Part shown: positions 1,537-15,286 of the stretch, in pieces
Position numbering within the stretch: the first letter of the stretch is position 1
Layout: each line of letters starts with the position of its first letter
Assembly: GCF_000981785.2 (NCBI RefSeq)
Contig: NZ_CP011304.1
Coordinates: 1,470,001-1,502,000 of the forward strand
Reading direction: 5' to 3'
Source of the DNA: Microcystis aeruginosa NIES-2549
Lineage (GTDB): Bacteria > Cyanobacteriota > Cyanobacteriia > Cyanobacteriales > Microcystaceae
Length of the DNA stretch: 32,000 nt
The notes under the pieces: generated by a model
Seen by the model: only the letters and a program-made list of their open reading frames with translations
The model's database searches: none
What the model was told of the DNA's origin: nothing
Position numbers and translations under genes: made by a program

Positions 1537-1757
1537 CGTTGAGCCAGAACTTATGGATAGCCCTGGGGCGAAGATACGAATTAACCATCGTCAACACCCA
1601 CAGGGCTTGACATAAAACTTAATTTAGGAGTTACAAAGGTGAGATGCTCCCCAGGAAGGAATTGGAATAGAATGTGATTATAATTCAGGCTGAGTACATA
1701 GTCTGTTTGTATCCATATTCCATTCAATCCATCAAATAAGGTGTGAGGATTGACCCC

Positions 1758-3452
1758 ATGTCAAAACTATTCAAGAACTTAGTAAAGGTAACTCCTTTAG
1801 TATTAGGTGCTTCTGTGGCGGCTGCTGGCGGTGCAGTGGCTCAAACCATGCCCAGTACGCCTCAACTTAAAATTGATCCAGCGGCGCCACAACAACTCGA
1901 TCGCATTCAGCGCGCCCAAAATAGTCAGCAGATTAATAGGAGTGTTGATCAGGGTTCCATGTCCCAGGTGACTAGCGTTAACCAACTGCGGGACGTATCT
2001 CCCACCGCTTGGGCCTATGAGGCATTAAGAAGCCTTGTGGAGCGTTATGGTTGTATTGTAGGTTATCCTGACCGGACTTTCAAGGGCGCTCAAGCTTTGA
2101 CTCGTTGGGAGTTTGCCGTCGGTTTAAATGCTTGTCTCAATAGTATGGAAAAATTGCTGCAAGAGGGAATTAAAATTACCCAAGCGGATTTAGAAACAAT
2201 CAAAAAACTTGCCCAAGATTTCCAGACAGAATTAGCCACTTTAGGCACAAGAATTGATAACTTAGAACAGAGAACAGCTTTTATCGAAGATCATAGTTTT
2301 TCAATCACTACAAAACTGCAAGGGGAAGTTATTTTTGCTCTCAGTAATGCTTGGTCGGATGATTTTGCTGTCGATAGTAATTTTCCCAATTTATCACCGA
2401 GTCAACAGGAGAGTTTAAGAAATCGTCCCATCGGTAATCAAACTACTTTTAGCGATCGAGTTAGACTAAATTTAAATACCAGTTTTACTGGCAAAGATTT
2501 ACTGCGAATGCGTCTGCAAGCTAGTAGTATTCCGAATTTAGCTAGGGCAACAGGTAGCGATATGGCGCGTCTTTCTTTTGATGCGGGTTCTCTCTACGAT
2601 AATAACAATATTGCTCTTGACGACTTATATTATATTAGCAATATTGATCGAGTTAAAGTCTGGATGGGAGCAAGAGGATTAGACCTTGATGATGTTTTTG
2701 ATGTGGTTAATCCTTTCCTAGAAAGTAGTGCTACAGGTGCTTTATCTCGTTTTAATCGTCGTAATCCTTTGGTTTATCGCGGTCCAGAAGGGGCGGGTTT
2801 AGGAGTGAGATATAATTTTTCATCTCAGTTAGCGGTGACAGCTTTGTATTTAGCAGAACAAGATACTGTCAGTAATCCTAATTCTGGTAATGGTTTGTTT
2901 AATGGTAATTACAGTACAGGGCTACAATTTAATGTTAAACCTGTTCCTAACTTACATTTTGCTGTCACCTATCTTCACGCTTATTTTACTCAAGGTTCGG
3001 TGAATTTATCGGGAAGTACAGGCAGTCCTATTACCCGGGATCCGTTTAACAATTTAGGGGCTGCTACCCGTGATAGCGTCGGTTTACAAAGTCATTGGAA
3101 TATTAATGATACTTTTAGCTTAGGTGGTTGGATAGGTTACGCTAAAGCTTACGCTCAAGGGATAGATTCTTCGGCGGATTTATGGACATGGCAAGGCAAT
3201 TTTTCTATTAGAGATTTTGTTAAAGAAGGGGCAACTTTTACCATTGCTGGTGGACAGTTACCCAGGGTGAGTTATGTGGAGGTGTTTACAGCAGATCGAG
3301 ATACTTCTCACATTTTAGAAGTGGAATATTCCTATCCCATTAGTCGCTATATTTTGCTAACTCCGGGGTTTTACGTTATTTTTGACCCTAATAATTTTAG
3401 TGAAAATGGTAATATCTGGGTGGGGGTAATTCGGACAACTTTTCGGTTTTAA
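1758..3452 (+). CDS. Outer-membrane porin, S-layer-homology (SLH) domain + OprB-type beta-barrel
   Basis: The ORF track starts at GTG 1743; the first ATG at 1758 gives the signal peptide MSKLFKNLVKVTPLVLGASVAAAGGAVAQ. The SLH motif is VSPTAWAYEALRSLVERYGCIVGYPDRTFKGAQALTRWEFA. A coiled-coil linker follows, then an alternating beta-strand pattern ending ...IRTTFRF (terminal Phe), as in cyanobacterial SomA/Slr1841-type porins. Confidence 0.85.
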   Translation: MSKLFKNLVKVTPLVLGASVAAAGGAVAQTMPSTPQLKIDPAAPQQLDRIQRAQNSQQINRSVDQGSMSQVTSVNQLRDVSPTAWAYEALRSLVERYGCIVGYPDRTFKGAQALTRWEFAVGLNACLNSMEKLLQEGIKITQADLETIKKLAQDFQTELATLGTRIDNLEQRTAFIEDHSFSITTKLQGEVIFALSNAWSDDFAVDSNFPNLSPSQQESLRNRPIGNQTTFSDRVRLNLNTSFTGKDLLRMRLQASSIPNLARATGSDMARLSFDAGSLYDNNNIALDDLYYISNIDRVKVWMGARGLDLDDVFDVVNPFLESSATGALSRFNRRNPLVYRGPEGAGLGVRYNFSSQLAVTALYLAEQDTVSNPNSGNGLFNGNYSTGLQFNVKPVPNLHFAVTYLHAYFTQGSVNLSGSTGSPITRDPFNNLGAATRDSVGLQSHWNINDTFSLGGWIGYAKAYAQGIDSSADLWTWQGNFSIRDFVKEGATFTIAGGQLPRVSYVEVFTADRDTSHILEVEYSYPISRYILLTPGFYVIFDPNNFSENGNIWVGVIRTTFRF

Positions 3453-4159
3453 ACACTGTCATCCTCAAATTTATAACCGACACCGACTACAGTTTTGATA
3501 AAGATAGGATTAGCAGGATCGGGTTCTACTTTTTTGCGTAAGCGTCGGATATGGGTATCTACTACCCTTTCATCGCCAAAAAAATCATTTCCCCAGAGAT
3601 TATCGATTAATTGGGTGCGACTCCAGACGCGATTGGGATAACTGACAAAGGTAGCGAGTAGATTAAATTCTAAGGTGGTTAAATCGAGGGTTTCCTCTGG
3701 CATTCCCTCCAATTTACGAACAGCAGAATGTTGATCTAAGTCGATCAGAAAATGACGGCTGCGATGGAGTTGTTGGGGTTGACTATCGTGTCTTAAACTA
3801 CGTCTTAATAAGGCTCTTACGCGAGCGGTTAATTCCCGGGGACTAAAGGGTTTTACCATATAATCATCGGCTCCCGTAGATAGACCGATAATGCGATCAA
3901 TTTCTTCTCCTCTAGCGGTTAACATTAAAATATAGGGGTCTTTTGTCCCCGGTTTTTGGCGGATTCTAGCACACAATTCTAGTCCGTCTAATTCGGGTAA
4001 CATTAAATCTAAAATAACTAAGTCTGGCTGCTTTTGATAAAATAGTTCTAGTCCTACCCTACCATTATAAGCCAGATGACAAGTAAAGGACTCCCTCTCT
4101 AAAGTTTGCTGAATCAAATGGGCGATTTCAATTTCATCTTCGATAATAACGATATCCAT
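3449..4159 (-). CDS. OmpR-family two-component response regulator (receiver + winged-helix)
   Basis: Receiver motifs are IIEDE, the phospho-acceptor in LVILDLMLPELDG, LMLTARG and DDYMVKPF. The C-terminal winged helix reads LTTLEFNLLATFVSYPNRVWSRTQLID...VDTHIRRLRKK...VVGVGYKF. No histidine kinase is adjacent. Confidence 0.9.
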   Translation of the reverse strand: MDIVIIEDEIEIAHLIQQTLERESFTCHLAYNGRVGLELFYQKQPDLVILDLMLPELDGLELCARIRQKPGTKDPYILMLTARGEEIDRIIGLSTGADDYMVKPFSPRELTARVRALLRRSLRHDSQPQQLHRSRHFLIDLDQHSAVRKLEGMPEETLDLTTLEFNLLATFVSYPNRVWSRTQLIDNLWGNDFFGDERVVDTHIRRLRKKVEPDPANPIFIKTVVGVGYKFEDDSV

Positions 4160-4268: not shown

Positions 4269-4289
4269 GGGAGAGTTGGCAACTCTCCC
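4269..4289. other. Perfect 9-bp stem-loop in the spacer between the PBP-like gene and the response-regulator gene
   Basis: GGGAGAGTT (4269-4277), loop GGC, AACTCTCCC (4281-4289). The T-run lies upstream on the plus strand, so it becomes an A-run after the hairpin on the minus strand. It is therefore not a canonical minus-strand intrinsic terminator. Confidence 0.4.
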
Positions 4290-4312: not shown

Positions 4313-5662
4313 TCAAGGTAAAGCGACAAACTGCTCACCGGAGGGAGTTGATCGCACTTGAATTAAGACCGGTTGACCGATGCGATCGCCAGTATTAGGA
4401 TCAAAGCTAATTTTTCCGGTGGCCCCTGTTTGATGAAAATTGCCGGAGCGCAGCTGGGATTGTAGGCCCTGACGATGGGTATTTTCCCTTAAACCGGCAA
4501 TAATCACCCGTGTAGCGTCAAAACTGGTGGCTGTGCGCCAACTAACCGGACCGCGCCACTGTTCCTGCATAAGATTGGCAAAAGTCTGGTTAACCGAGGG
4601 GTGCCAGGGTGCGGCAAGGGTTAAACCTTGGGCGTTTTTGCCGCCATCTTCGAGGGTGCGAATATTGTAGAGGGTGGGACTACTAAACAGAGGCAAACGC
4701 TGACGATTGGAGCGAATAACCTCAAAAACGGGATCGAGACGATCAATATGAGCGACGACAAATAGGCCGTTAGCACCCCCAGAAATCGCCTGATTAAGGG
4801 CTTGATCGGCCTTAAAATTGGGTACACTCAGATCGCAGACAATCGGCACAATTTGACCGCCTTTTTTCGCCACATTAGCCATCAACTCATCTTTAAAGGA
4901 AATATTATCAGGAGCTTGAGAATCGTAGCAAAAAGCAATTTTCTGGACTTTAGCAGTATTTACTATGTAATTTGCTAAGGTTTCCGTAATTTTGCCGTTA
5001 GAAGCCACCAGACGAAAGATATAATTTCCCGCACCGGAGAGATTATTAGCCAGGGAGGTGGGAGAAATCATCACCAAACCGCCTTTTTCGTAGATGGGAG
5101 CGGCGGCTAAACTGGCATCGGAGGCATTATGACCGATAACAGCGATAATATCGGGATTTTTGACTAATTCACTGGCTACCTCTTTCGATATCTGCGGCTG
5201 ATTATCGTCATTAACCACGATAACCATCAGTTTTCTGCCGTTGATCCCTCCCTGTTGATTGATCTGGGTTTGTGCGCTGGCGACTCCTCGCAATATTTCC
5301 TGAGCGACGTTGGGATTAGTTGTTGCTGGCACAATAACGGCGATTTTGAAGGGATTTGAGCCAGTTTGCAGGTTGCTTAGATAAATTACGCTTTCGGGAT
5401 CGTTGGGATGTTGAGCGAGGGATTTTTGCAGGAGTTGCTCTGCTTCTTGGTGATCACCTTGAGCAATGGCAGCGATCGCTGATTCTTTGGTGGTGTTAGA
5501 ATTAGTTTTGATCAGGAGATGATTGCCGTAACTGATGCGGGGATTATTATCGGCTTTTGGGGCAAATATTGCCAATATTTGGGGAAAAAGAAACCAACCG
5601 ATCAACCCCAGTAAAACATAGGAAATTGGCGGTAAACCCGCTTTTTTGCCAGTCTTTGTCAT
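4313..5662 (-). CDS. Membrane-anchored TPR + type-1 periplasmic binding protein (LivK/Peripla_BP_6-like) sensor/solute-binding protein
   Basis: The N-terminal TM helix is PPISYVLLGLIGWFLFPQILAIF (about nt 5564-5632). A TPR-like segment reads GDHQEAEQLLQKSLAQHPNDPESVIYLSNL. PBP1 motifs are FKIAVIVP, AQEILRGV, IIAVIGHNASDAS, ISPTS and GATGKISFDPNTGD. AAGGAG sits 7 nt upstream of the ATG. Confidence 0.8.
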   Translation of the reverse strand: MTKTGKKAGLPPISYVLLGLIGWFLFPQILAIFAPKADNNPRISYGNHLLIKTNSNTTKESAIAAIAQGDHQEAEQLLQKSLAQHPNDPESVIYLSNLQTGSNPFKIAVIVPATTNPNVAQEILRGVASAQTQINQQGGINGRKLMVIVVNDDNQPQISKEVASELVKNPDIIAVIGHNASDASLAAAPIYEKGGLVMISPTSLANNLSGAGNYIFRLVASNGKITETLANYIVNTAKVQKIAFCYDSQAPDNISFKDELMANVAKKGGQIVPIVCDLSVPNFKADQALNQAISGGANGLFVVAHIDRLDPVFEVIRSNRQRLPLFSSPTLYNIRTLEDGGKNAQGLTLAAPWHPSVNQTFANLMQEQWRGPVSWRTATSFDATRVIIAGLRENTHRQGLQSQLRSGNFHQTGATGKISFDPNTGDRIGQPVLIQVRSTPSGEQFVALP

Positions 5663-5682: not shown

Positions 5683-6393
5683 CTAATTGAATTCGGCTAA
5701 ACGGCGGTTAATTTCGTCATCAAGGCTTAAGAAATCGATTTCTTGAGCTAATTTCTCGCTATAGTTCTCGCTTAATTCACTATAGGCGTTTTCTTTTCGA
5801 TAACGGTCTTTAATCGCTTCATTGGCATCCTCAAAGCGATCGCGGGAGTTATTGAGGTTGAGACTACTATCAAATTCGTTTATTTTGCCTAAAGCCTCAT
5901 TCATGGAACTAATCGCTTTTAAGTTGCTCATTTCTAACTTATAATGCTCGATTTTTTCCTGCTCTTGGCGAAGTTTTTCCTTAGCAGCAATGACTACTTT
6001 TTCGGCATTATCAACCCGATCTTTCATAGCGGGTAGAATTTTTTCTAGGGAGAGAACCTTAACCATAGCTAGTCTTGCCGCTTCTTGAAGACCTTTTTTT
6101 TGAGCGGTGACAGCCTGTTGCAAGTAGTTTGTGTGTTCCTGTTTTTTTGCCTCGTATTGTGCTTGGGCCGATTGCTGGGCCGCTACTACTTGCGCCACCG
6201 ATTCTGTTAATTCCGCTAGGGATTTTTGCATCGATTCTAGGGATTCTTTGGCCGATTCTACGGCAATTTTGCCGCCGGATTCGATGGGAATACCCCACAA
6301 CCAATTCCAGATCGCAACGAGAGAATTTCCTGCCTTATCACCGATCAGCCAAAAAATCAAGGCTTTTGGGGTTAATTTTTTTAACAATTTCAT
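5683..6393 (-). CDS. PspA/IM30-family-like coiled-coil protein with an atypical Trp-rich hydrophobic N-terminus
   Basis: The 236-aa protein is almost entirely heptad-like helix, e.g. ESMQKSLAELTESVAQVVAAQQSAQAQYEAKKQEHTNYLQQAVTAQKKG...AMVKVLSLEKILPAMKDRVDNAEKVVIAAKEKLRQEQEKIEHYKLEMSNLKA...RFEDANEAIKDR...DDEINRRLAEF. By eye it is colinear with the PspA helix layout. GGAG sits 9 nt upstream of the ATG. The family call is by recollection, not computed. Confidence 0.6.
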   Translation of the reverse strand: MKLLKKLTPKALIFWLIGDKAGNSLVAIWNWLWGIPIESGGKIAVESAKESLESMQKSLAELTESVAQVVAAQQSAQAQYEAKKQEHTNYLQQAVTAQKKGLQEAARLAMVKVLSLEKILPAMKDRVDNAEKVVIAAKEKLRQEQEKIEHYKLEMSNLKAISSMNEALGKINEFDSSLNLNNSRDRFEDANEAIKDRYRKENAYSELSENYSEKLAQEIDFLSLDDEINRRLAEFN

Positions 6394-6500: not shown

Positions 6501-9068
6501 TTAGAGTGGACCGGCAGATTTAATGGGAGCGAGGGGGACAAATCGACCATTTTTGACCTGTAGAATCAAGTAGCGGCGATCATCAGGATTATTATTCATG
6601 TTGCGGATACCATTCTCATCGAATCTAACAGTGCCAGTCATTCCTTCAATAGAAAAATCGTTTCTTAAAACTTTATATAATGATTCTCGATCGAATTTTT
6701 GTCCTTGTTGGGATAACTGTCGCAAAGCGGTGAGGATAACTTTGGTCGCATCGTAGGCCATGGGAGTGCGCCAAACATTGATCTTATTTTGCCAAAAACT
6801 GTGGATATAATTATCTTGTTTGAGATCATACCAAGGCACGGGGATAACTAAATTTTCCACCCCCTGTTCACCTTCTGCAAGGGTGAGATAACTTTGAAAA
6901 GTGGGTGAACCTAAAGTTACTAAGTTTAACTGTTGTGCGTGACGTTGCTTAAAGATACTGACGGCTCTTTTCAGATCATTAACATAGGGAGCAACCATGA
7001 GAATATTTACTTGATACTGAGCAATTTTTTGATAAATTTCCTGTTCATCTAAATTATTTTTTGGCTCGATATTGCAGTCAAAATCTGCATCTTTAATGAC
7101 TTTTTGAAAGCGCTGACCGAGGAGAATGTTTTTATATTTTTTAGCGAAGTTATAATTATCCCCAGAGCGATTATCATAACAAATTAAATTAGTGGGGTTT
7201 TGGATAATTAGCTTGTCAGTTTGTTCGCGGATATATTCACTTAAGGTTGTGGCAAAAGTTTCCATATCGGGAACCATTTTATATATATAGCCATTGCCAG
7301 AGATTTTCGAGGAAAAGCTGGTGGGAGATAGGGCCACAATTTTCCCTTGTACATAAATATCTTTGGCCGCTTCACTAGCAGCAGAAGCATTATGACCAAC
7401 CACTGCTATGATTGACGGATCTTTAACAAATTTTTCGGCTCGATCTTTGGCATCTACGCCACTATTATTATCATTAGCGACCACTACCTGTAGAAAGTGA
7501 AAATCGGGGTTTTTGGCCTGTTCATCGTTTAACTCCTGTTGAAATAAAGCAATACCTCGTAAAATTTCTTGAGCAATTTCTGGATTATTACCAATAGGAA
7601 CACTGGTGGCAATTTTTAAGGGATTTCTATCTTGATAGGCCGCACGAGCGTTATTATAATAGATGCGAATCTCTGGATTATTGGGCAAGCGATCAAGGGA
7701 TTTTTTAAAAAGCTGAATTGCTTGTTTATATTCTTTGTTTTTAAAAGCTTGTCTTCCCCGTTCAATCATGTTATCTTGTCGGTTTGTCTTTAATAATATT
7801 TCTTCACCTAAGCTAATTTCTGGGTATTTACTAGCATCATCGGAAAATACTCCTCCCCAATATAAAACTGATAAAGTTACCAGAAGACTTAAAATAAATA
7901 ACAGAGCTTGTTTCCAGCGACTAGATAGACGTAATAACCTTTTATTTTTAGGTAAAATCAACGGTGGTTCTTCAGGATTTTCTATCAAACGAGGCAGCAA
8001 AGAAGAACTAGCAGCATCCACCTCAAATTCGTGTAATTTTAATTCTTGCCGAGCGATTGTTAAGGATTCTTGTAGGGATTTATGTTCAAGAAAATTGGGA
8101 AGAAAAACTTCTAGAAATCTCAAAGCAACCCGCACAGCGATGGGTTCTTTCATAACAATAATATGCGGTACTCCGATATTAGCCAACTGACGACCAATAC
8201 CCAACCCATCGCAGGAGTTACATATAACAAGTTTTAAGCCTTTTTTAACAGCTATTTCTAGGGAATTTCTTAAGTTATGTGCAGGAGATAAAGCCGTATC
8301 ATTATCAATGATAAAAACTCCATCGTGACCGTCGCTACTGGTTTGACTATGACCTAAATAAACTACAATATCCCATTGATTTTTGATCAACTCATTGTGA
8401 ATATTTTTCGTTGAAGGAGGAACGTCTGAACTGGGACTTAATATTTGCATAGAAACCTTATCTTGGTTTCCTAGTGCCGTTTGCAAACTGGATAAACACA
8501 GGGAATTATGCTCGTTTTCGATGTCAATATTACCCAAAATTACTAAAATATTAATCGGAGAAGTCAGGTTAATTATCGGGGGATTTCTCTGGATAGTAAG
8601 AGCAATTTCCACATCAGGACACCATTGGTGTAAAAAATTCCAACACTCCCAGGGAATTTGTTGTAAATCAAAGTGGGTAGTTTGGATAAAAAATCTTACT
8701 TCTGACTTAGTACCTATATGGAACAAGATATGATTTTGTATCGAACTCAGATAACTAGAGTTTAGCCATTCATTTAGGCTATCTTGTAAAGTTTGAGTAG
8801 CTTGTCTCAGGTTGTCTCTAGGATCACCTACCGCTGCATGGGTGATCATACTATGAGGAACGGTAATTCCTAAACTGGGTTGACTTTCTACCCAATGATA
8901 ATAAGCTCGACGATAATTTTGCAAAGCGTCAGCAATGTCAAGGTTAGGGACTAATCTACCCTCCGCAAAAGGTGCTATCAAGAGATGATTGTCACGAATT
9001 TCTAGAGTGACGGAAAATCCCGTCTCAAAACTGCCATCACCAATTTTCAGAATCACAACTCTGCTCAT
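6501..9068 (-). CDS. Multidomain protein: N-terminal module + CHAT (caspase-like cysteine protease) domain, single TM helix, TPR, type-1 periplasmic binding domain
   Basis: The 855-aa ORF starts with ATG. CHAT-like strands and motifs are INILVILG, WDIVVYLGH(240)S, LKLVIC(283)NSC(286)DG and VPHIIVMKEPIAVRVALRFLEVF...SLQESLTIARQEL. The TM helix is ALLFILSLLVTLSVLYWGGV. The TPR segment reads ERGRQAFKNKEYKQAIQLFKKSLDRLPNNPEIRIYYNNA. PBP1 motifs are LKIATSVP, AQEILRGI, IIAVVGHNASAAS, LSPTS and GMTGTVRFDENG. Confidence 0.75.
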   Translation of the reverse strand: MSRVVILKIGDGSFETGFSVTLEIRDNHLLIAPFAEGRLVPNLDIADALQNYRRAYYHWVESQPSLGITVPHSMITHAAVGDPRDNLRQATQTLQDSLNEWLNSSYLSSIQNHILFHIGTKSEVRFFIQTTHFDLQQIPWECWNFLHQWCPDVEIALTIQRNPPIINLTSPINILVILGNIDIENEHNSLCLSSLQTALGNQDKVSMQILSPSSDVPPSTKNIHNELIKNQWDIVVYLGHSQTSSDGHDGVFIIDNDTALSPAHNLRNSLEIAVKKGLKLVICNSCDGLGIGRQLANIGVPHIIVMKEPIAVRVALRFLEVFLPNFLEHKSLQESLTIARQELKLHEFEVDAASSSLLPRLIENPEEPPLILPKNKRLLRLSSRWKQALLFILSLLVTLSVLYWGGVFSDDASKYPEISLGEEILLKTNRQDNMIERGRQAFKNKEYKQAIQLFKKSLDRLPNNPEIRIYYNNARAAYQDRNPLKIATSVPIGNNPEIAQEILRGIALFQQELNDEQAKNPDFHFLQVVVANDNNSGVDAKDRAEKFVKDPSIIAVVGHNASAASEAAKDIYVQGKIVALSPTSFSSKISGNGYIYKMVPDMETFATTLSEYIREQTDKLIIQNPTNLICYDNRSGDNYNFAKKYKNILLGQRFQKVIKDADFDCNIEPKNNLDEQEIYQKIAQYQVNILMVAPYVNDLKRAVSIFKQRHAQQLNLVTLGSPTFQSYLTLAEGEQGVENLVIPVPWYDLKQDNYIHSFWQNKINVWRTPMAYDATKVILTALRQLSQQGQKFDRESLYKVLRNDFSIEGMTGTVRFDENGIRNMNNNPDDRRYLILQVKNGRFVPLAPIKSAGPL
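6504..7622 (-). other. Type-1 periplasmic binding (LivK/ANF-receptor-like) domain of the CHAT protein
   Basis: Residues ~483-855. It shares NP(L/F)KIA, AQEILRG, IIAV(V/I)GHNAS, SPTS, WRT..(Y/F)DAT(K/R)VI and G(M/A)TG..(R/S)FD motifs with the neighbouring 449-aa protein. Confidence 0.7.
7848..7907 (-). other. Single predicted transmembrane helix separating the protease half from the sensor half
   Basis: Residues 388-407 (ALLFILSLLVTLSVLYWGGV) are preceded by the basic stretch KNKRLLRLSSRWKQ. By the positive-inside rule the N-terminal CHAT half should be cytoplasmic. Confidence 0.65.
8034..8561 (-). other. CHAT/caspase-fold domain segment (residues ~170-345) with putative catalytic His240 and Cys286
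   Basis: I checked these codons directly. Plus-strand 8349-8351 = ATG, reverse complement CAT = His240. Plus-strand 8211-8213 = GCA, reverse complement TGC = Cys286. Plus-strand 8220-8222 = ACA, reverse complement TGT = Cys283. Each follows a hydrophobic beta-strand, as in clan-CD proteases. Confidence 0.65.
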
Positions 9069-9100: not shown

Positions 9101-10465
9101 TTAAATCCTAAACTGTTCGGTAATGCTACTGTCCCCTAAACTTAGGTTAACATTAAAGCGATCGTCGGCATCAGCTAGAAAATAAAGCTGTAGATAGCTA
9201 TCTAAGGGTTTCTCCCTTGCTATTGCTTCTAAACCGGGGATTAATTGGCCTATTTCATCGCTAATTTGCAAAGATAAACCGGGGGGTAGCTTGGCAAAAT
9301 TGTCCATGGCATAGGCACGAATTAAGACAGCAATTCTCTGGTCACTGGTCGATAAAACTCCCACCATTAAAGCAATTTTATAACCCATTAATTGACTACC
9401 CACATCGAGCATTTTACGGATAGCAGCATTGGGATAATGAGGATCAATATTCCAGAGATATTCTGCCGCTTGCCAGCGAATAGTTTCATCTTGGGTTTGA
9501 TGTTGCAGTTTTGCTAAAGCTTCCTCTGGGGTTAAATGTTCCGAAAATTCCACCTCTTTTTGACTAGCATACAGTTGTCTAATTTCTCGCTGAATATCTG
9601 TCGGAGATTCTCGACTGCTGATTTTTTCGGCAGCCAACAAAAAACCCGGATTAATTGGACGATAACTGTCGATGGTGTTAAGGATTTCTTGCCATTTTTC
9701 GCTAATAATTCCCTGCAACCATTGACTAAGTTTAGTGGGGATTACCTCTAAACGCTGCTGATAAAGTTTTTCTCGCCATTGCTGATTATTCAACAAGGCT
9801 AACCACTGCTGAAAACTAATATCTAATCTCGGAGAATAGGGTGAAACTTGACTTAAATTTTTAATTAAATTTTCTGCTGTTACTGGCGATAAATTTGCTA
9901 AATATTCCAGCTTTTCTTTTTCACTCTCTCCCTCTAAACAACTCTGCCAAAGAATATCTAAATCATCAATCATTTGCTCACTGTCCAAATAATATTGATG
10001 GTAAATTGGATCGTATTCTGCGAGATTTTTAACATCTTGTCTGGATATAAAACCCCAGATATTGAGGAATTTTTCTGCTAAATCTACCTGCACCCCTAGA
10101 TAAAAATCCGCCGCTAAATCGGGAATATCAACCCATTCTTGCTCTATTGTCAATCCCTCAATGTCAATAGTTTGACTGGGAATAATAGTAACTTTTTTAT
10201 CTTGAATTTGCCAAGTAAACCCGTTAATAAACTCCCAAAGATACTGATGGTTCTCAGGTATTATTTGAAGGGAACAATCAAGATTATTTTTTAGCCAATT
10301 GCTTAAGCATATTTGCACCAAGTAATTAATCAAGGCCTGATTTTTGGCGGTTTGATTAGAGTATTGACCGAGAATCGATCGAGCTTGTTTAATCTCTGTT
10401 TCCGAAAAAGTTAGCCAAAGGGATTTCGGGTTAATTTGTTGCAAAATATCGAGGTTGACTTTCAT
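9101..10465 (-). CDS. DUF1822-like protein (cyanobacteria-restricted family, function unknown)
   Basis: The 454-aa ORF starts with ATG, with GGAG 5 nt upstream. The N-terminal pattern ...EIKQARSILGQYSNQTAKNQALINYLVQICLSNWLKNN... and the acidic Trp/Gln-rich body match my recollection of DUF1822 proteins. I cannot verify the family assignment here; the CDS itself is solid. Confidence 0.6.
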   Translation of the reverse strand: MKVNLDILQQINPKSLWLTFSETEIKQARSILGQYSNQTAKNQALINYLVQICLSNWLKNNLDCSLQIIPENHQYLWEFINGFTWQIQDKKVTIIPSQTIDIEGLTIEQEWVDIPDLAADFYLGVQVDLAEKFLNIWGFISRQDVKNLAEYDPIYHQYYLDSEQMIDDLDILWQSCLEGESEKEKLEYLANLSPVTAENLIKNLSQVSPYSPRLDISFQQWLALLNNQQWREKLYQQRLEVIPTKLSQWLQGIISEKWQEILNTIDSYRPINPGFLLAAEKISSRESPTDIQREIRQLYASQKEVEFSEHLTPEEALAKLQHQTQDETIRWQAAEYLWNIDPHYPNAAIRKMLDVGSQLMGYKIALMVGVLSTSDQRIAVLIRAYAMDNFAKLPPGLSLQISDEIGQLIPGLEAIAREKPLDSYLQLYFLADADDRFNVNLSLGDSSITEQFRI

Positions 10466-10487: not shown

Positions 10488-11627
10488 TTAAGTTAAGTAG
10501 GACTGACAAAAATATTCTAGATAAGCATCGATCTCTTGTTTTTGCCGAGATTCTAATTTAATCTCATTTAACAACTTAGGACAATCTTTGCCTTCCCTTG
10601 CAGAGAGTAGCTGATAAATTTTTTTACATAATTGGGTTATTTCTCGACTAATAGTAGATGAATGAACTCCCAATCGATTAGCGATCTGTGCTTGCGTCAT
10701 TTTTTGATGATAGTAACAATATACAATCTGTTTAACTTCCTCCTCAAGAGTGATTAATAACTTATTAATATCTTCCTGGATTTCTTGTTGTAGTAAATCG
10801 TTACTTGGCTTTTTGCTGGGGAGATTTTCCCAAAAGTAATTGCTATCATGTTCATAATTAGTAGGCTCAAATTTAGAGTAAGAAGGATCGATATGATTAC
10901 GCATTATCTCCCCTATTTGATTGAGTTTTGCTTGCACTTCCTCCACGGTGAAAATAACTTGCGGTTGTAACTGCCGTAGGCGATCAATTACCTGTTGCCA
11001 ATCCTCCCATTGCCATTTATCCAATGATCTAAGAGAAGCTTTTTTTTCCTCTCGAAAACAGTTAAATATTAGCAGATAATTCTCGTTAAAGATACCTGAT
11101 GTTCGTAAAACTTTTTGAATTTTATTCGCACTAAAAAGACTGACTATACCGAGATTAGTCCTGCCGATAGTTTTATACTCTCCTCGCAGGAAATTATAGA
11201 GAGTATTTCTCAATTTTTTATCTGTCCATTTTTCTAAGATTAAGCGAAAAAATCCCAGTTTGGCCTTGTTATCCTGAAAATTACCGTAAAAATTGCTAGG
11301 ATTATTAATGATTGCCGCAGAAAGCAAATTCAGCAAATAGTAGAAGAGGGTTTCATAATCGGCATCGATCCGATGGCCAACATTTTGATAGACCCTTTGA
11401 GTTACTATAGAGGAGCGATATTGTAAAAAAACCATCCAATGAGACTTGACTAATTGGTTATTAGGCTCATTCTGTAACCATTGCCACAGATAGAGATATA
11501 CCGCTTCATCATTGGCAACCTTTCCAGCGATCGCCTCGATCGATCTTCTTAATTGTGGCACTTCGCACCAGAAAACTCGATCGCCTTCCATGGCTTTAAT
11601 AGTAGTATAAAAGTACCTAACGCTCAT
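10488..11627 (-). CDS. Atypical sigma-70-family-like protein (only a region-4 HTH is recognisable)
   Basis: The ORF track start at 11636 is GTG; the first ATG is at 11627 (MSVRYFY...). The C-terminal segment IVYCYYHQKMTQAQIANRLGVHSSTISREITQLCKKIYQLL resembles a sigma region 4.2 HTH. The ~290 residues upstream have no region-2 motif I can recognise by eye. Confidence 0.6.
   Translation of the reverse strand: MSVRYFYTTIKAMEGDRVFWCEVPQLRRSIEAIAGKVANDEAVYLYLWQWLQNEPNNQLVKSHWMVFLQYRSSIVTQRVYQNVGHRIDADYETLFYYLLNLLSAAIINNPSNFYGNFQDNKAKLGFFRLILEKWTDKKLRNTLYNFLRGEYKTIGRTNLGIVSLFSANKIQKVLRTSGIFNENYLLIFNCFREEKKASLRSLDKWQWEDWQQVIDRLRQLQPQVIFTVEEVQAKLNQIGEIMRNHIDPSYSKFEPTNYEHDSNYFWENLPSKKPSNDLLQQEIQEDINKLLITLEEEVKQIVYCYYHQKMTQAQIANRLGVHSSTISREITQLCKKIYQLLSAREGKDCPKLLNEIKLESRQKQEIDAYLEYFCQSYLT
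10602..10760 (-). other. Sigma region-4-like helix-turn-helix segment
   Basis: Residues ~293-345: LLITLEEEVKQIVYCYYHQKMTQAQIANRLGVHSSTISREITQLCKKIYQLL. Confidence 0.55.
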
Positions 11628-11872
11628 CTCTATCACCGGCTACAGGTATCTGCTATCTGATTAGGTAAAAACCGAGGATTTTTTGCAAGAGTAGCAAATA
11701 AATTCAGTGATTCCCTTGCCAAGCGCACCTCTTTCTCTGACAATAGATGAGGGACTGATGAGAAACTATCAGTTATAGTGAGACAGCCTTAGCAACCCAG
11801 TAAAAGACTCGTAAATTCACTCTGAGCTGCCACAAATAGCCGTCATATCAACTTCTAGGACAAAAATTAGGA

Positions 11873-13849: not shown

Positions 13850-15286
13850 ATGTCTTCCATCACCACTATCACTACTGCTACTTCCTACACCACTGGTTTT
13901 AGTCTCGCTGTTGGTGACTATCTCTTCGTTCAGAATTTATTGGCTGCCAAGCCTTTTCTCGCTGTGTCTATGGTGCAGTCGACTGCTGTACCCGGACTTA
14001 ATCTCACTGCCATGGGCGGTGGCTTTTGGAGGTTACGCAACGGAACGACCAATGATGTTAACGGAACGCTTTCCGCGTACCGACAACCCTTTTCTTATGA
14101 GTTTCTTCTGCCAGCAGGTACTGATACCTATGTTTCAAGTCCTTATACGACCGCCACTCATATACTACAAATCGACACTACCAGAATCACAAAAGCCAAC
14201 AAGACCGGAACATTTTCGATAGGTCTCCCCAGTGGACTAGTCCTCAGCGATCACTATAGCATTTCAGGTGGCGGTGGAGACGATACCCTAACTGGTCGCA
14301 ATGGAAACGATACCCTAGATGGTGGGGATGGAAACGATGTCCTGTCGGGTCTCTCTAATGACGATAACCTGTTGGGTGCTCAAGGAGACGATAGCCTGTT
14401 CGGTGGCGATGGGAACGATAACCTAGACGGTGGCGATGGGAACGATAGCCTGGACGGTGGCAATGGGGACGATAGCCTGTTCGGTGGCGATGGGGACGAT
14501 ATCCTGGACGGTGGAGACGGAAACGATGCCCTGGACGGTGGCCAAGGAGGCGATACCTTCCAAATCACCTCAGGCAGCGACACAATTTCGGATCTTGGTA
14601 TCGGCCCCGATGTGTTGGTTGTTTCTGCCGGCGCAACGGTGACTGCAAGCTTGACGGCACCATGGACAGCGTCTTCATTGACTAGCAATAACGGCAATGC
14701 AACCATCAGTACGGGGGGTGTTTCCCTCGACCTAAGTGCAGCGGGCGGTTCATCGGGATGGACGGTCAACATTAGCATTAGTGGTGCCAATATCACTGGC
14801 TCCGCTAATGCAGACACCATCACTGGTGGGGGTGGAGGCGATGGCCTCACTGGTAACAATGGAAACGATAGCCTGGTTGGTGGGGGTGGAAACGATACCC
14901 TCACTGGTGGGGGTGGAAACGATACCCTCACTGGTGGTACTGGTACTGACCGTTTTATTTTCAATAGTCCTAGCGAAGGCATTGACACCATCACCGATTT
15001 TACCATCGCCGCCGGCAGCAATCAGGATTCCATCCGAGTTTCTGCCAGTGGTTTCGGTGGTGGACTGACTGGCTCTGCCGGAGGAACTGTTTTGCCTACT
15101 GCACAATTTCTCTCCGGTTCGGGAGCTACTAGCGCTGCTACTGCAGCTCAGAGATTCATCTATAACACCAATAATGGTGGTTTATGGTTTGACGTCGATG
15201 GTGTTGGTGGCACTGCTTCGGTTCAAATCGCAACCCTTACCGGTTCGCCGGCCCTAACTGCAGCCAGGATTACGGTTATTGCCTAA
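13850..15286 (+). CDS. RTX-type (hemolysin-type calcium-binding repeat) secreted protein
   Basis: There are two blocks of GGxGxDxL/F nonapeptides, e.g. GGGGDDTLTGRNGNDTLDGGDGNDVLSG...GGDGNDNLDGGDGNDSLDGGNGDDSLFGGDGDDILDGGDGNDALDGGQGGDTF, and later GGGGGDGLTGNNGNDSLVGGGGNDTLTGGGGNDTLTGGTGTDRFIF. The C-terminal segment RFIYNTNNGGLWFDVDGVGG...IATLTG is typical of cyanobacterial RTX-like proteins. Confidence 0.85.
   Translation: MSSITTITTATSYTTGFSLAVGDYLFVQNLLAAKPFLAVSMVQSTAVPGLNLTAMGGGFWRLRNGTTNDVNGTLSAYRQPFSYEFLLPAGTDTYVSSPYTTATHILQIDTTRITKANKTGTFSIGLPSGLVLSDHYSISGGGGDDTLTGRNGNDTLDGGDGNDVLSGLSNDDNLLGAQGDDSLFGGDGNDNLDGGDGNDSLDGGNGDDSLFGGDGDDILDGGDGNDALDGGQGGDTFQITSGSDTISDLGIGPDVLVVSAGATVTASLTAPWTASSLTSNNGNATISTGGVSLDLSAAGGSSGWTVNISISGANITGSANADTITGGGGGDGLTGNNGNDSLVGGGGNDTLTGGGGNDTLTGGTGTDRFIFNSPSEGIDTITDFTIAAGSNQDSIRVSASGFGGGLTGSAGGTVLPTAQFLSGSGATSAATAAQRFIYNTNNGGLWFDVDGVGGTASVQIATLTGSPALTAARITVIA
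14402..14563 (+). repeat. Six in-frame 27-nt tandem units inside the RTX CDS (a second, perfect 2x27-nt duplication lies at 14879-14932)
   Basis: Units start at 14402, 14429, 14456, 14483, 14510 and 14537 (GGTGGCGATGGGAACGATA(A/G)CCT(A/G)GAC and variants). GGTGGGGGTGGAAACGATACCCTCACT is repeated exactly at 14879-14905 and 14906-14932. Confidence 0.9.

What the first reader, a model, noticed from the sequence alone, without database searches (positions are those of the whole stretch)
6501..9068. Receptor-caspase architecture: cytoplasmic CHAT protease fused through one TM helix to a TPR + periplasmic-binding sensor domain
Seen: one 855-aa ORF holds four parts in order. First is an N-terminal ~165-aa module starting VVILKIGDGSFETGFSVTLEI...LQNYRRAYYHW. 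Second is a caspase-fold segment with His240 (VVYLGHS) and Cys283/Cys286 (LVICNSCDG); I verified both codons on the DNA. Third is a single hydrophobic helix (residues 388-407) preceded by a basic stretch. Fourth is a TPR-like segment followed by a ~370-aa LivK-like domain.

Established: in bacteria, PBP1/ANF-receptor-like extracytoplasmic domains usually feed kinases, cyclases or chemoreceptors, and CHAT proteases are usually soluble and coupled to TPR or STAND modules.

Inference: here a protease replaces the usual kinase output, which implies ligand-controlled proteolysis at the inner membrane. I recall the N-terminal module recurring at the N-termini of cyanobacterial CHAT/STAND-type proteins. 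That is memory only and unverified.
Basis: partly seen in the sequence, partly recalled or inferred. Interest (0 to 1): 0.8.

Follow-up and report, generated by a model that had tools for sequence, protein, structure and literature searches.

The report
Membrane receptor fused to caspase-like protease
This Microcystis gene encodes a membrane-spanning protein with a nutrient-binding-type sensor outside the cell and a caspase-like protease inside; it belongs to a large cyanobacterial family, described only computationally, that sits next to its own sigma factor and probably turns an outside signal into a proteolytic switch on transcription.

Summary
ORF 6501..9068 (minus strand, 855 aa) has five parts: an N-terminal alpha+beta module, a CHAT caspase-fold domain, one TM helix (389-407), a short TPR-like segment and a type I periplasmic-binding domain. 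His240 and Cys286 are conserved; Cys283 is not. The positive-inside rule puts CHAT in the cytoplasm and the sensor outside.

It is not a one-off. The N-terminal module plus CHAT has 2101 representative clusters, nearly all identifiable ones cyanobacterial. It matches the "EACC2-caspase" family described in silico by Kaur et al. (eLife 2021), which has variable C-terminal sensors and neighbouring ECF sigma and DUF1822 genes. Here the gene order is sigma, DUF1822, receptor, then a PspA-like gene and a stand-alone TM-TPR-PBP paralogue. The PBP-type variant occurs in about 40 cyanobacterial species genomes.

Most likely mechanism (inferred): ligand binding outside activates the CHAT protease, which cleaves the two-domain DUF1822 adaptor and frees the sigma factor. 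This would parallel Csx29-Csx30-RpoE, DdvA-DdvS and HetF-PatU3.

Verdict: a new member of a known but experimentally untouched kind. Interest is moderate. The public annotations "ABC transporter substrate-binding protein" and "adenylate cyclase" are misleading.

The parts
10488..11636 (-). Atypical sigma-70/ECF-like factor, 'long' class (382 aa). It is the first gene of the cluster.
   Evidence: It matches TIGR02937 sigma70-ECF at 3.3e-13 (49.6 bits, cutoff 42.9) and Pfam Sigma70_r4. The N-terminal ~200 aa are conserved in 15 homologues from other genera, so the long ORF is real. A sigma-like gene lies upstream of DUF1822 in 59 of 67 loci.
9101..10465 (-). DUF1822 protein (454 aa): two folded halves joined by a disordered linker (residues 254-285). 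It is the proposed cleavable adaptor or anti-sigma.
   Evidence: Pfam DUF1822 scores 231 bits. It lies immediately upstream of the CHAT gene in most of the 82 loci (75 DUF1822 ORFs in all). The AF2 model has pLDDT 85.6, with 254-259 and 265-285 below 50. Its N-half co-varies with the sigma class. There is no convincing PDB fold match.
8574..9068 (-). N-terminal alpha+beta module (residues 1-165), equivalent to 'EACC2' of Kaur et al. 2021.
   Evidence: It is confidently modelled. Together with CHAT it is conserved in 2101 representative clusters. It precedes CHAT in proteins with many different C-termini. Literature.
7953..8573 (-). CHAT / caspase-fold protease domain (residues 166-372). The proposed dyad is His240 (8349-8351) and Cys286 (8211-8213).
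   Evidence: The Pfam CHAT hit is above cutoff. Foldseek matches separase (6e-11), Csx29 (5.5e-10), SAVED-CHAT and DdvA. The GHS and NSCDG motifs are conserved in 128 sequences. Codons were checked.
7848..7952 (-). Basic linker (373-388, PKNKRLLRLSSRWKQA) followed by a single TM helix (389-407).
   Evidence: Hydropathy and flanking charge are.
7623..7847 (-). Extracytoplasmic juxtamembrane motif (ISLGEEIL) and a short TPR-like segment (residues 408-482).
   Evidence: There are sub-threshold Pfam TPR hits and matches to designed TPR proteins in the PDB. The segment is conserved in homologues and in the paralogue at 4313..5662.
6504..7622 (-). Type I periplasmic-binding (LivK/ANF-receptor-like) sensor domain (residues 483-855), with an invariant Cys630/Cys665 pair.
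   Evidence: It matches Peripla_BP_6 and ANF_receptor. PDB sequence hits are 4mlc at 1.2e-7, 3td9 and LivJ. The Cys pair is invariant in A1 and aligned in the paralogue.
5683..6393 (-). PspA/IM30-family protein (236 aa) with an extra, moderately hydrophobic N-terminal stretch. It is an accessory partner or a target.
   Evidence: Pfam PspA_IM30 scores 46.6 bits against a cutoff of 33.9. The same PspA-like + TM-TPR-PBP pair lies next to PBP-type CHAT genes in Leptolyngbya (L020), UBA11372 (L015) and Pseudanabaena (L022).
4313..5662 (-). Stand-alone membrane-anchored TPR + periplasmic-binding protein (449 aa), a paralogue of the receptor's outer half.
   Evidence: It is 34% identical over 417 aa to residues 408-855 (E 1e-63). 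It has an N-terminal hydrophobic anchor at about residue 16 and scores 121.7 bits on Peripla_BP_6.
3449..4159 (-). Orphan OmpR-type response regulator on the same strand. Whether it belongs to the system is uncertain.
   Evidence: It has Response_reg and Trans_reg_C domains. It is adjacent only in Microcystis loci. A hairpin lies between it and the upstream gene.

Best explanation
The 855-aa protein is a single-pass inner-membrane receptor-protease of the cyanobacterial EACC2-CHAT family.

Shown here:
- The N-terminal alpha+beta module and the caspase-fold CHAT domain, with a conserved His240/Cys286 dyad, are cytoplasmic.
- A short TPR-like segment and a type I periplasmic-binding domain are extracytoplasmic.
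- The gene is the third in a conserved cassette of sigma-like factor, DUF1822 and receptor.

Inferred mechanism:
1. A small molecule binds the outer domain. Its PBP relatives suggest an amino-acid-like or organic-acid ligand.
2. Binding changes the receptor's conformation or oligomeric state.
3. This activates the membrane-proximal CHAT domain.
4. CHAT cleaves the two-domain DUF1822 protein, probably in its flexible linker.
5. Cleavage frees or activates the neighbouring sigma factor and switches on a regulon.

The PspA-like protein and the stand-alone TM-TPR-PBP paralogue are accessory parts or first targets. In short, it would work like a one-polypeptide version of signal-activated CHAT proteolysis of an anti-sigma-like adaptor.
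For: Architecture and topology:
- Domains, TM helix and charge bias.
- Fold and dyad: AF2 pLDDT 90.3; Foldseek matches to separase, Csx29, SAVED-CHAT and DdvA; GHS and NSCDG motifs conserved in 128 sequences.

Family:
- 1156 proteins in the 90%-identity collection and 2101 clusters at 50% identity share the module.
- Their C-termini include CHASE2, PsbP, pentapeptide, GUN4, Macro, STAND, TPR and PBP domains.
- 28 of the top 150 representatives carry a homologous PBP domain.
- About 40 species genomes have the full-length type.

Cassette:
- DUF1822 is directly upstream in most of the 82 loci (75 DUF1822 ORFs in all).
- A sigma-like gene lies upstream of that in 59 of 67.

DUF1822 as adaptor:
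- It has two folded halves and a disordered linker.
- Its Microcystis-type N-half is found in 14 of 16 genes paired with a long sigma and in 0 of 43 paired with a short sigma.

Precedents:
- Csx29 (CHAT) cleaves a loop between the two domains of Csx30, whose N-domain binds the sigma factor RpoE (PMC9825189).
- DdvA is a transmembrane TPR-CHAT anti-sigma of an ECF sigma (PMC11506125).
- HetF is a cytoplasmic CHAT + 1 TM + periplasmic TPR protease that cleaves PatU3.
- Kaur et al. propose stimulus-induced caspase activation feeding the ECF sigma.
Against: - No protease activity, substrate, ligand or sigma regulon has been shown for any member of this family.
- The DUF1822 linker has no conserved motif, so no cleavage site can be named.
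- The co-variation counts are not corrected for phylogeny.
- The Microcystis sigma is atypical. It scores above the superfamily cutoff (TIGR02937) and the Sigma70_r4 cutoff but below every subfamily cutoff, and Sigma70_r2 was not detected. The short class is only weakly ECF-like.
- Kaur et al. favour autoproteolysis rather than cleavage of a partner.
- The PBP domain was assigned by sequence only, and its pocket was not modelled.
Confidence: 0.6

Rival explanations
1. The system is a counter-invader (immune or abortive-infection-type) system, as Kaur et al. frame the EACC systems. The outer domain would sense an invader- or damage-derived molecule. The caspase would then trigger a defensive or suicidal response, with the PspA-like protein handling membrane damage.
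For: The family was described in the context of conflict systems. Its structural relatives Csx29, SAVED-CHAT and DdvA all act in phage defence. C-terminal domains vary strongly between paralogues. There are tandem expansions in L006 and L015.
Against: There is no PADLOC hit for the receptor, DUF1822 or the PBP paralogue. The neighbours are housekeeping genes and no mobile-element genes are in the window. The locus is syntenic in the two other Microcystis genomes recovered. Across 99 Microcystis orthologues the sensor is no more variable than the protease. No toxic effector domain is encoded; the visible output is a sigma factor.
Confidence: 0.2
2. The main event is self-cleavage rather than cleavage of a partner. 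A signal makes the CHAT domain cut its own linker, releasing the EACC2-CHAT module (or EACC2 alone) into the cytoplasm. There it engages DUF1822 and the sigma factor without cutting them.
For: Kaur et al. propose autopeptidase activation. Trans-autoproteolysis of the juxtamembrane linker is proposed for DdvA. In Microcystis orthologues the linker 361-390 is the second most variable stretch.
Against: The linker between the last CHAT strand and the TM helix is only about 18 residues and is not conserved. No processed forms are known. The Csx30 and PatU3 precedents are cleavage of a separate protein.
Confidence: 0.12
3. The protein has a HetF-like housekeeping role. It would be a membrane-anchored protease that degrades a specific cytoplasmic inhibitor of cell division or morphogenesis, and the outer domain would serve mainly for localisation or partner binding rather than ligand sensing.
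For: HetF has the same topology (cytoplasmic CHAT, 1 TM, periplasmic TPR). Its isolated CHAT domain suffices for function.
Against: Conserved linkage to a sigma factor and DUF1822, not to division genes. The outer domain keeps the conserved PBP motifs GHNAS and SPTS and an invariant Cys pair. HetF has about 260 residues between its catalytic Cys295 and the TM helix, against about 100 here, so orthology is doubtful. Orthology was not tested.
Confidence: 0.06
4. The public annotation is right: the protein is a substrate-binding protein of a branched-chain amino-acid ABC transporter (or an adenylate cyclase).
For: Sources give these names. The C-terminal half matches Peripla_BP_6.
Against: No Liv-type permease or ATPase genes are in the 32-kb window. 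No cyclase domain is present. The PBP domain is tethered through a TM helix to a 372-aa cytoplasmic protease module.
Confidence: 0.02

Closest known systems
EACC2-caspase systems (Kaur, Iyer, Burroughs, Aravind, eLife 2021; PMC8195603)
   Same: Both have a constant N-terminal alpha+beta domain plus a caspase/CHAT domain and a highly variable C-terminus that can be extracellular behind TM helices. Both have neighbouring ECF-type sigma and DUF1822 genes and are mainly cyanobacterial.
   Different: No PBP-type C-terminus (TM + TPR + Peripla_BP_6) appears in the supplementary text held here. The PspA-like gene and the stand-alone PBP paralogue are not mentioned either. The paper calls DUF1822 a TPR protein, whereas the model here shows an alpha/beta domain plus a beta-sandwich. 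The paper contains no experiments.
HetF of Anabaena/Nostoc, the founding CHAT protease (PMC8406250, PMC9457339)
   Same: HetF has a cytoplasmic CHAT domain, one TM helix and a periplasmic TPR domain. It is an active Cys protease that cleaves a specific regulator, PatU3, after Arg117.
   Different: HetF has no PBP domain and no reported sigma/DUF1822 partners, and its cytoplasmic region is longer (1-555). It acts in cell division and heterocyst differentiation. Sequence relatedness to the window protein was not tested.
DdvA-DdvS of Myxococcus xanthus (PDB 8rot; PMC11506125)
   Same: DdvA is a single-pass membrane protein with a TPR-CHAT module that controls an ECF sigma factor. It is a Foldseek hit (E 3.5e-6). 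CHAT-mediated proteolysis is proposed as the trigger.
   Different: The topology is inverted: in DdvA the TPR-CHAT is periplasmic and a zinc anti-sigma domain is cytoplasmic. The window protein has no anti-sigma domain, its CHAT is cytoplasmic and its sensor is a PBP domain.
Craspase: Cas7-11/Csx29 (TPR-CHAT) - Csx30 - RpoE (PDB 8eey; PMC9825189)
   Same: A signal-activated CHAT protease cuts a loop between the two domains of an adaptor whose N-domain holds a sigma factor. It is a top Foldseek hit (5.5e-10). DUF1822 has an analogous two-domain-plus-linker layout, with an N-half that tracks the sigma class.
   Different: In craspase the activator is target RNA bound by a CRISPR effector, and the system is soluble. 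No sequence or fold similarity between DUF1822 and Csx30 was shown.
Type I PBP / ANF-receptor sensor domains of membrane receptors (natriuretic peptide receptors, class C GPCRs, bacterial PBP-coupled kinases and cyclases)
   Same: These also have an extracytoplasmic Peripla_BP_6/ANF_receptor domain tethered by a TM helix to a cytoplasmic enzymatic output.
   Different: Here the output is a caspase-like protease instead of a kinase, cyclase or G-protein coupling. Dimerisation and ligand binding were not tested.

Membership tests
CHAT / clan CD caspase-fold peptidases (Pfam PF12770) | Sequence match to the family model above the curated threshold | tested here: met
   The CHAT hit scores 29.9 bits against a gathering score of 24, over residues 215-343.
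CHAT / clan CD caspase-fold peptidases (Pfam PF12770) | Caspase-hemoglobinase fold | tested here: met
   The AF2 model has pLDDT 90.3 and pTM 0.91. Foldseek probability is 1.00 to separase, Csx29, SAVED-CHAT and DdvA, and about 0.99 to MALT1 and Dronc.
CHAT / clan CD caspase-fold peptidases (Pfam PF12770) | Catalytic His after strand 3 and Cys after strand 4, both conserved | tested here: met
   His240 follows strand 234-238 and Cys286 follows strand 280-283. G239, S241, N284, S285, C286 and G288 are invariant and H240 is conserved in at least 90% of 128 sequences. The residue-level superposition on a solved dyad and the His-Cys distance were not obtainable.
CHAT / clan CD caspase-fold peptidases (Pfam PF12770) | Peptidase activity | not testable with these tools
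   This needs a biochemical assay.
EACC2-caspase systems (Kaur et al. 2021) | Constant alpha+beta domain directly N-terminal to the caspase domain, shared by proteins with variable C-termini | tested here: met
   Residues 1-372 align end to end with more than 1000 proteins whose C-termini differ, including CHASE2, PsbP, pentapeptide, GUN4, Macro and STAND. The model shows strands and helices in 1-165. No named EACC2 reference sequence was available for direct comparison, so the identification rests on matching architectures and neighbourhoods.
EACC2-caspase systems (Kaur et al. 2021) | Neighbouring ECF-type sigma factor and DUF1822 genes | tested here: met
   In the window the order is sigma 10488..11636, DUF1822 9101..10465, receptor 6501..9068. 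The same order holds in most of the 82 loci.
DdvA-like TPR-CHAT anti-sigma factors | N-terminal cytoplasmic zinc-binding anti-sigma domain and periplasmic TPR-CHAT | tested here: not met
   No anti-sigma domain was found. CHAT lies on the cytoplasmic side of the TM helix. The protein may work like this family but is not a member.
ABC-transporter substrate-binding proteins (LivJ/LivK type) | Peripla_BP_6-type binding domain | tested here: met
   Peripla_BP_6 scores 49.2 bits against a cutoff of 31.7. PDB hits are 4mlc, 3td9 and LivJ.
ABC-transporter substrate-binding proteins (LivJ/LivK type) | Free or lipid-anchored periplasmic protein encoded with permease and ATPase genes | tested here: not met
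   The domain is fused through a TM helix to a cytoplasmic protease. No Liv permease or ATPase genes are in the window. The NCBIfam LivJ-type model scores 21.6 bits against a cutoff of 477.
HetF orthologues | Cytoplasmic CHAT, one TM, periplasmic TPR | tested here: met
   The topology and short TPR-like segment are shown here. The HetF layout comes from PMC8406250 and PMC9457339.
HetF orthologues | Sequence orthology to Alr3546 and a PatU3-type substrate | not tested

The most novel reading that the evidence does not exclude
The sigma - DUF1822 - EACC2-CHAT-receptor cassette is a widespread but experimentally unrecognised third mode of bacterial transmembrane signalling, alongside two-component systems and classical anti-sigma regulated proteolysis. 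In this mode, ligand-induced pairing of Venus-flytrap sensor domains outside the cell activates a caspase-like domain inside by induced proximity, as death receptors do with initiator caspases. The caspase then cuts a dedicated adaptor of novel fold (DUF1822) to release an atypical sigma factor. In Microcystis this would be a metabolite-sensing proteolytic switch relevant to bloom physiology.
Probability: 0.3. Interest if true: 0.75.

Novelty: new member of a known kind. Interest (0 to 1): 0.45.

Why it matters
If the inferred mechanism holds, cyanobacteria carry thousands of receptor-caspases that convert extracellular chemical cues into irreversible proteolytic activation of private sigma factors. 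No member of this signalling logic has been tested.

The Microcystis representative looks like a good entry point:
- Its sensor type is well understood, so ligand screening is feasible.
- It appears broadly retained among Microcystis assemblies.
- It has clear candidate partners (DUF1822, the sigma factor, the PspA-like protein).

It also gives a bacterial analogue of receptor-to-caspase signalling, and it corrects misleading database names ("ABC transporter substrate-binding protein", "adenylate cyclase").

Tried and rejected
- Sequence searches of the PDB with the full protein and with a 128-sequence profile of the N-terminal module found no CHAT relatives. Only fold comparison worked.
- Residue-by-residue superposition of His240/Cys286 on a solved dyad, and their distance in the model, could not be obtained. 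Model coordinates are not exposed (file listing).
- PADLOC found nothing meaningful.
- Foldseek of the DUF1822 model gave only weak beta-sandwich matches (best E 6.8e-4, TM 0.23 or less). No fold assignment was made, and the "TPR protein" label from the literature was not reproduced.
- BLASTP of the Microcystis sigma against the short Nostoc upstream protein showed no similarity. The short class was then shown to be weakly ECF-like from a profile.
- Promoter and terminator scans and reading of the intergenic regions gave no usable shared promoter motif.
- I first assumed that ORF 1743..3452 was a histidine kinase partner of the response regulator. It is an OprB/SLH porin.
- A test for diversifying selection on the sensor within Microcystis showed no excess variability.
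- HetF membership could not be tested because no sequence was available.


Full report
**Observation**

The window carries an 855-aa ORF at 6501..9068 on the minus strand. It is 100% identical to a Microcystis aeruginosa protein. Public sources name it "ABC transporter substrate-binding protein", "adenylate cyclase" or "CHAT domain-containing protein".

Pfam gives these matches:
- CHAT at residues 215-343 (29.9 bits, cutoff 24).
- Peripla_BP_6 at 526-824 (49.2 bits, cutoff 31.7), with ANF_receptor at 34.7 bits.
- TPR hits at 435-479, all below their cutoffs.

The TPR-like segment also matches designed TPR proteins in the PDB at E about 6e-4.

Hydropathy shows a single strong peak at 389-407 (Kyte-Doolittle 2.17) and no N-terminal signal peptide. 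The 17 residues before the helix hold six K/R and no acidic residues. The 17 after it hold one K/R and five acidic residues. By the positive-inside rule the N-terminal 388 residues are cytoplasmic and residues 408-855 are extracytoplasmic.

The same bias holds in 23 of 29 PBP-type homologues, with mean K+R of 4.1 before the helix and 1.6 after it. An invariant Cys630/Cys665 pair in the outer domain is also aligned in the paralogue downstream. A disulfide there would fit an oxidising compartment; this is inference.

However, Cys283 is Phe in most relatives. G239, S241 and N284-S285-C286-G288 are invariant in 128 sequences, and H240 and D287 are conserved in at least 90% of them.

**Fold**

I modelled residues 1-372 with AlphaFold2 on a 128-sequence alignment. 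The model is confident (pLDDT 90.3, pTM 0.91). Its best Foldseek matches in the PDB are:
- separase (E 6e-11; TM 0.63 to the C. thermophilum pseudo-protease plus catalytic domain, 5fby)
- Csx29 of craspase (5.5e-10)
- SAVED-CHAT filaments
- the transmembrane anti-sigma factor DdvA (3.5e-6)
- MALT1 and Dronc

His240 sits at the end of strand 234-238 and Cys286 at the end of strand 280-283. These are the positions of the caspase dyad.

The match to two-domain separase fragments suggests a reading of the first 165 residues. The Pfam CHAT hit covers only profile positions 127-266. Together these hint that residues 1-165 occupy the place of the pseudo-protease half of larger CHAT proteins. This last point is inference.

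**How common it is**

A profile of the N-terminal module from five distant homologues finds 1156 proteins in the 90%-identity collection. The window's own module finds 2101 clusters at 50% identity, 524 of them at E of 1e-30 or better. The module is almost always N-terminal.

It is followed by very different C-termini: CHASE2, PsbP, pentapeptide repeats, GUN4, Macro, CVNH, STAND NTPases, TPR or Peripla_BP_6.

Among the 146 representatives that carry the dyad motifs:
- 66 have one hydrophobic segment after the module
- 33 have two or more
- 29 have none
- 18 have no or only a short C-terminal extension

Membrane receptor layouts are therefore the rule in this family.

The PBP-type is frequent. 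Twenty-eight of the top 150 representatives have a domain homologous to residues 483-855. About 40 species-level genomes encode a near-full-length relative. These include Nostoc, Anabaena, Fischerella, Calothrix, Rivularia, Leptolyngbya-like taxa, Pseudanabaena, Lyngbya and Moorena, plus one Sericytochromatia MAG. Some relatives have two PBP domains in tandem.

**Neighbourhood**

All genes from 11636 down to 3449 lie on the minus strand with short gaps. In order they are:
- a sigma-70/ECF-like protein (TIGR02937 at 3.3e-13, Sigma70_r4)
- a DUF1822 protein (231 bits)
- the receptor
- a PspA/IM30-family protein (46.6 bits, cutoff 33.9)
- a membrane-anchored TPR-PBP protein
- an orphan OmpR-type response regulator

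The anchored TPR-PBP protein is a 34%-identical paralogue of the receptor's outer half (E 1e-63).

Across 82 related loci, DUF1822 is immediately upstream of the EACC2-CHAT gene in most of them (75 DUF1822 ORFs were found in all). The gene upstream of DUF1822 falls into two classes:
- A long sigma-like protein of 380-500 aa in 16 loci. Its N-terminal region is conserved across genera.
- A short protein of about 210-250 aa in 43 loci. It is weakly but consistently ECF-like: Sigma70_r2 in 3 of 14 members (best 2.4e-6), and its top PDB hits are ECF SigE and SigK.

The PspA-like + TM-TPR-PBP pair recurs next to PBP-type receptors in Leptolyngbya, UBA11372 and Pseudanabaena. Two loci carry two or three PBP-type receptors in tandem behind a single sigma-DUF1822 pair. 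The rest of the window is housekeeping and has no Liv-type permease or ATPase.

**Literature**

Kaur, Iyer, Burroughs and Aravind (eLife 2021, PMC8195603) describe this organisation computationally. Their description has these elements:
- a constant novel alpha+beta domain they name EACC2, followed by a caspase domain
- a highly variable C-terminus that may be extracellular behind TM helices (their example is CHASE2) or may carry small-molecule-binding domains

They propose stimulus-induced autopeptidase activation feeding into the sigma factor. Their supplement lists DUF1822-annotated proteins next to EACC2+CASPASE genes. No PBP-type architecture appears in the text held here. No experimental work on any member was found.

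**DUF1822**

The AlphaFold2 model has pLDDT 85.6 and pTM 0.56. It shows:
- an alpha/beta N-terminal domain (about residues 1-250)
- a disordered linker (254-285)
- a helical segment (288-340)
- an eight-strand beta-sandwich (349-453)

Foldseek finds no convincing relative. The TPR description in the literature was not reproduced.

The Microcystis-type N-half is detectable in 14 of 16 DUF1822 genes paired with a long sigma and in 0 of 43 paired with a short sigma. The C-half is shared across both classes when the partner is a PBP-type receptor. This fits an adaptor whose N-half contacts the sigma factor and whose C-half contacts the constant protease module. The counts are not corrected for phylogeny.

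**Mechanism**

Three experimentally studied systems supply the logic:
- In type III-E CRISPR, the CHAT protease Csx29 is switched on by a bound signal. It cuts a loop between the two domains of Csx30, whose N-domain holds the sigma factor RpoE (PMC9825189).
- In Myxococcus, DdvA is a transmembrane TPR-CHAT anti-sigma of the ECF sigma DdvS (PMC11506125).
- In Anabaena, HetF is a membrane-anchored, cytoplasmic CHAT protease with a periplasmic TPR domain. It cleaves the regulator PatU3 after Arg117 (PMC8406250, PMC9457339).

By analogy, the most likely reading has three steps:
1. Ligand binding to the outer PBP domain activates the CHAT domain. This could act through oligomerisation, since the CHAT domain lies only about 18 residues from the membrane.
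2. CHAT cleaves DUF1822.
3. The sigma factor is released.

The architecture, topology, fold, conserved dyad and gene linkage are shown here. Ligand control, the substrate and sigma release are inferred.

**Rivals**

- A defence role is possible given the family's relatives. Against it: no PADLOC hits for the receptor, DUF1822 or the PBP paralogue, a housekeeping context, the same gene order in the two other Microcystis genomes recovered, and a sensor no more variable than the protease among 99 orthologues.
- Self-cleavage instead of partner cleavage cannot be excluded.
- A HetF-like housekeeping role is less likely given the sigma/DUF1822 linkage.
- The transporter and cyclase annotations are contradicted by the domain content and context.

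**Verdict**

The architecture is neither rare nor previously unnoticed. It is one sensor variant of a very large, computationally described and experimentally unexplored cyanobacterial family. I rate it a new member of a known kind, with interest of about 0.45.

Noticed in passing
window 9101..10465 (-): The AlphaFold2 model of the DUF1822 protein has an alpha/beta N-domain, a disordered linker (254-285) and a C-terminal beta-sandwich. It has no convincing PDB fold match. The literature labels DUF1822 a TPR protein (or TRADD-N+TPRs), which the model does not reproduce. Its N-half tracks the class of the neighbouring sigma factor (14 of 16 against 0 of 43).
   Followed up: partly
window 10488..11636 (-); loci L001-L082: Two unrelated-looking classes of sigma-like gene sit upstream of DUF1822. 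One is a long class of 380-500 aa with a conserved N-terminal ~200 aa. The other is a short class of 210-250 aa that most Pfam scans miss and that is only weakly ECF-like.
   Followed up: partly
window 5683..6393 (-) and 4313..5662 (-): A PspA/IM30-family protein with an extra, moderately hydrophobic N-terminal stretch is paired with a membrane-anchored TPR-PBP protein. The pair recurs beside PBP-type CHAT receptors in Leptolyngbya (L020), UBA11372 (L015) and Pseudanabaena (L022). In Nostocaceae two Band_7 genes precede the cassette instead (L001).
   Followed up: partly
L006 7304-12484; L015 3378-12366: There are two (Floridaenema) or three (UBA11372) PBP-type EACC2-CHAT receptors in tandem behind a single sigma-DUF1822 pair. 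This suggests several sensors feed one output.
   Followed up: no
window 15680..17932 (-): This is a class A penicillin-binding protein (transglycosylase + transpeptidase) with an N-terminal FHA domain. That implies phospho-threonine-dependent control of peptidoglycan synthesis.
   Followed up: no
window 1743..3452 (+) and 3449..4159 (-): An OprB-family porin with an SLH domain converges on, and overlaps by 4 bp, an orphan OmpR-type response regulator. No histidine kinase is in the window.
   Followed up: no
window 4269..4289: A perfect 9-bp-stem GC-rich hairpin (GGGAGAGTT...AACTCTCCC) lies between the TPR-PBP gene and the response regulator. It is a possible end of the sigma-to-PBP transcription unit.
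   Followed up: no
window 6501..9068 (-), residues 181-240: Microcystis orthologues carry a lineage-specific variable insertion in a CHAT loop between strand 172-178 and the His strand. It is the most variable stretch among 99 orthologues.
   Followed up: no
window 13850..15286 (+): This is a 478-aa protein with RTX calcium-binding nonapeptide repeats, in a G+C-richer patch (0.53 against about 0.40 around it).
   Followed up: no
L073 (Microcystis aeruginosa W13-11): This is a second, non-PBP EACC2-CHAT paralogue with its own DUF1822 gene in Microcystis, 31% identical in the module. A 595-aa unidentified ORF lies upstream.
   Followed up: no
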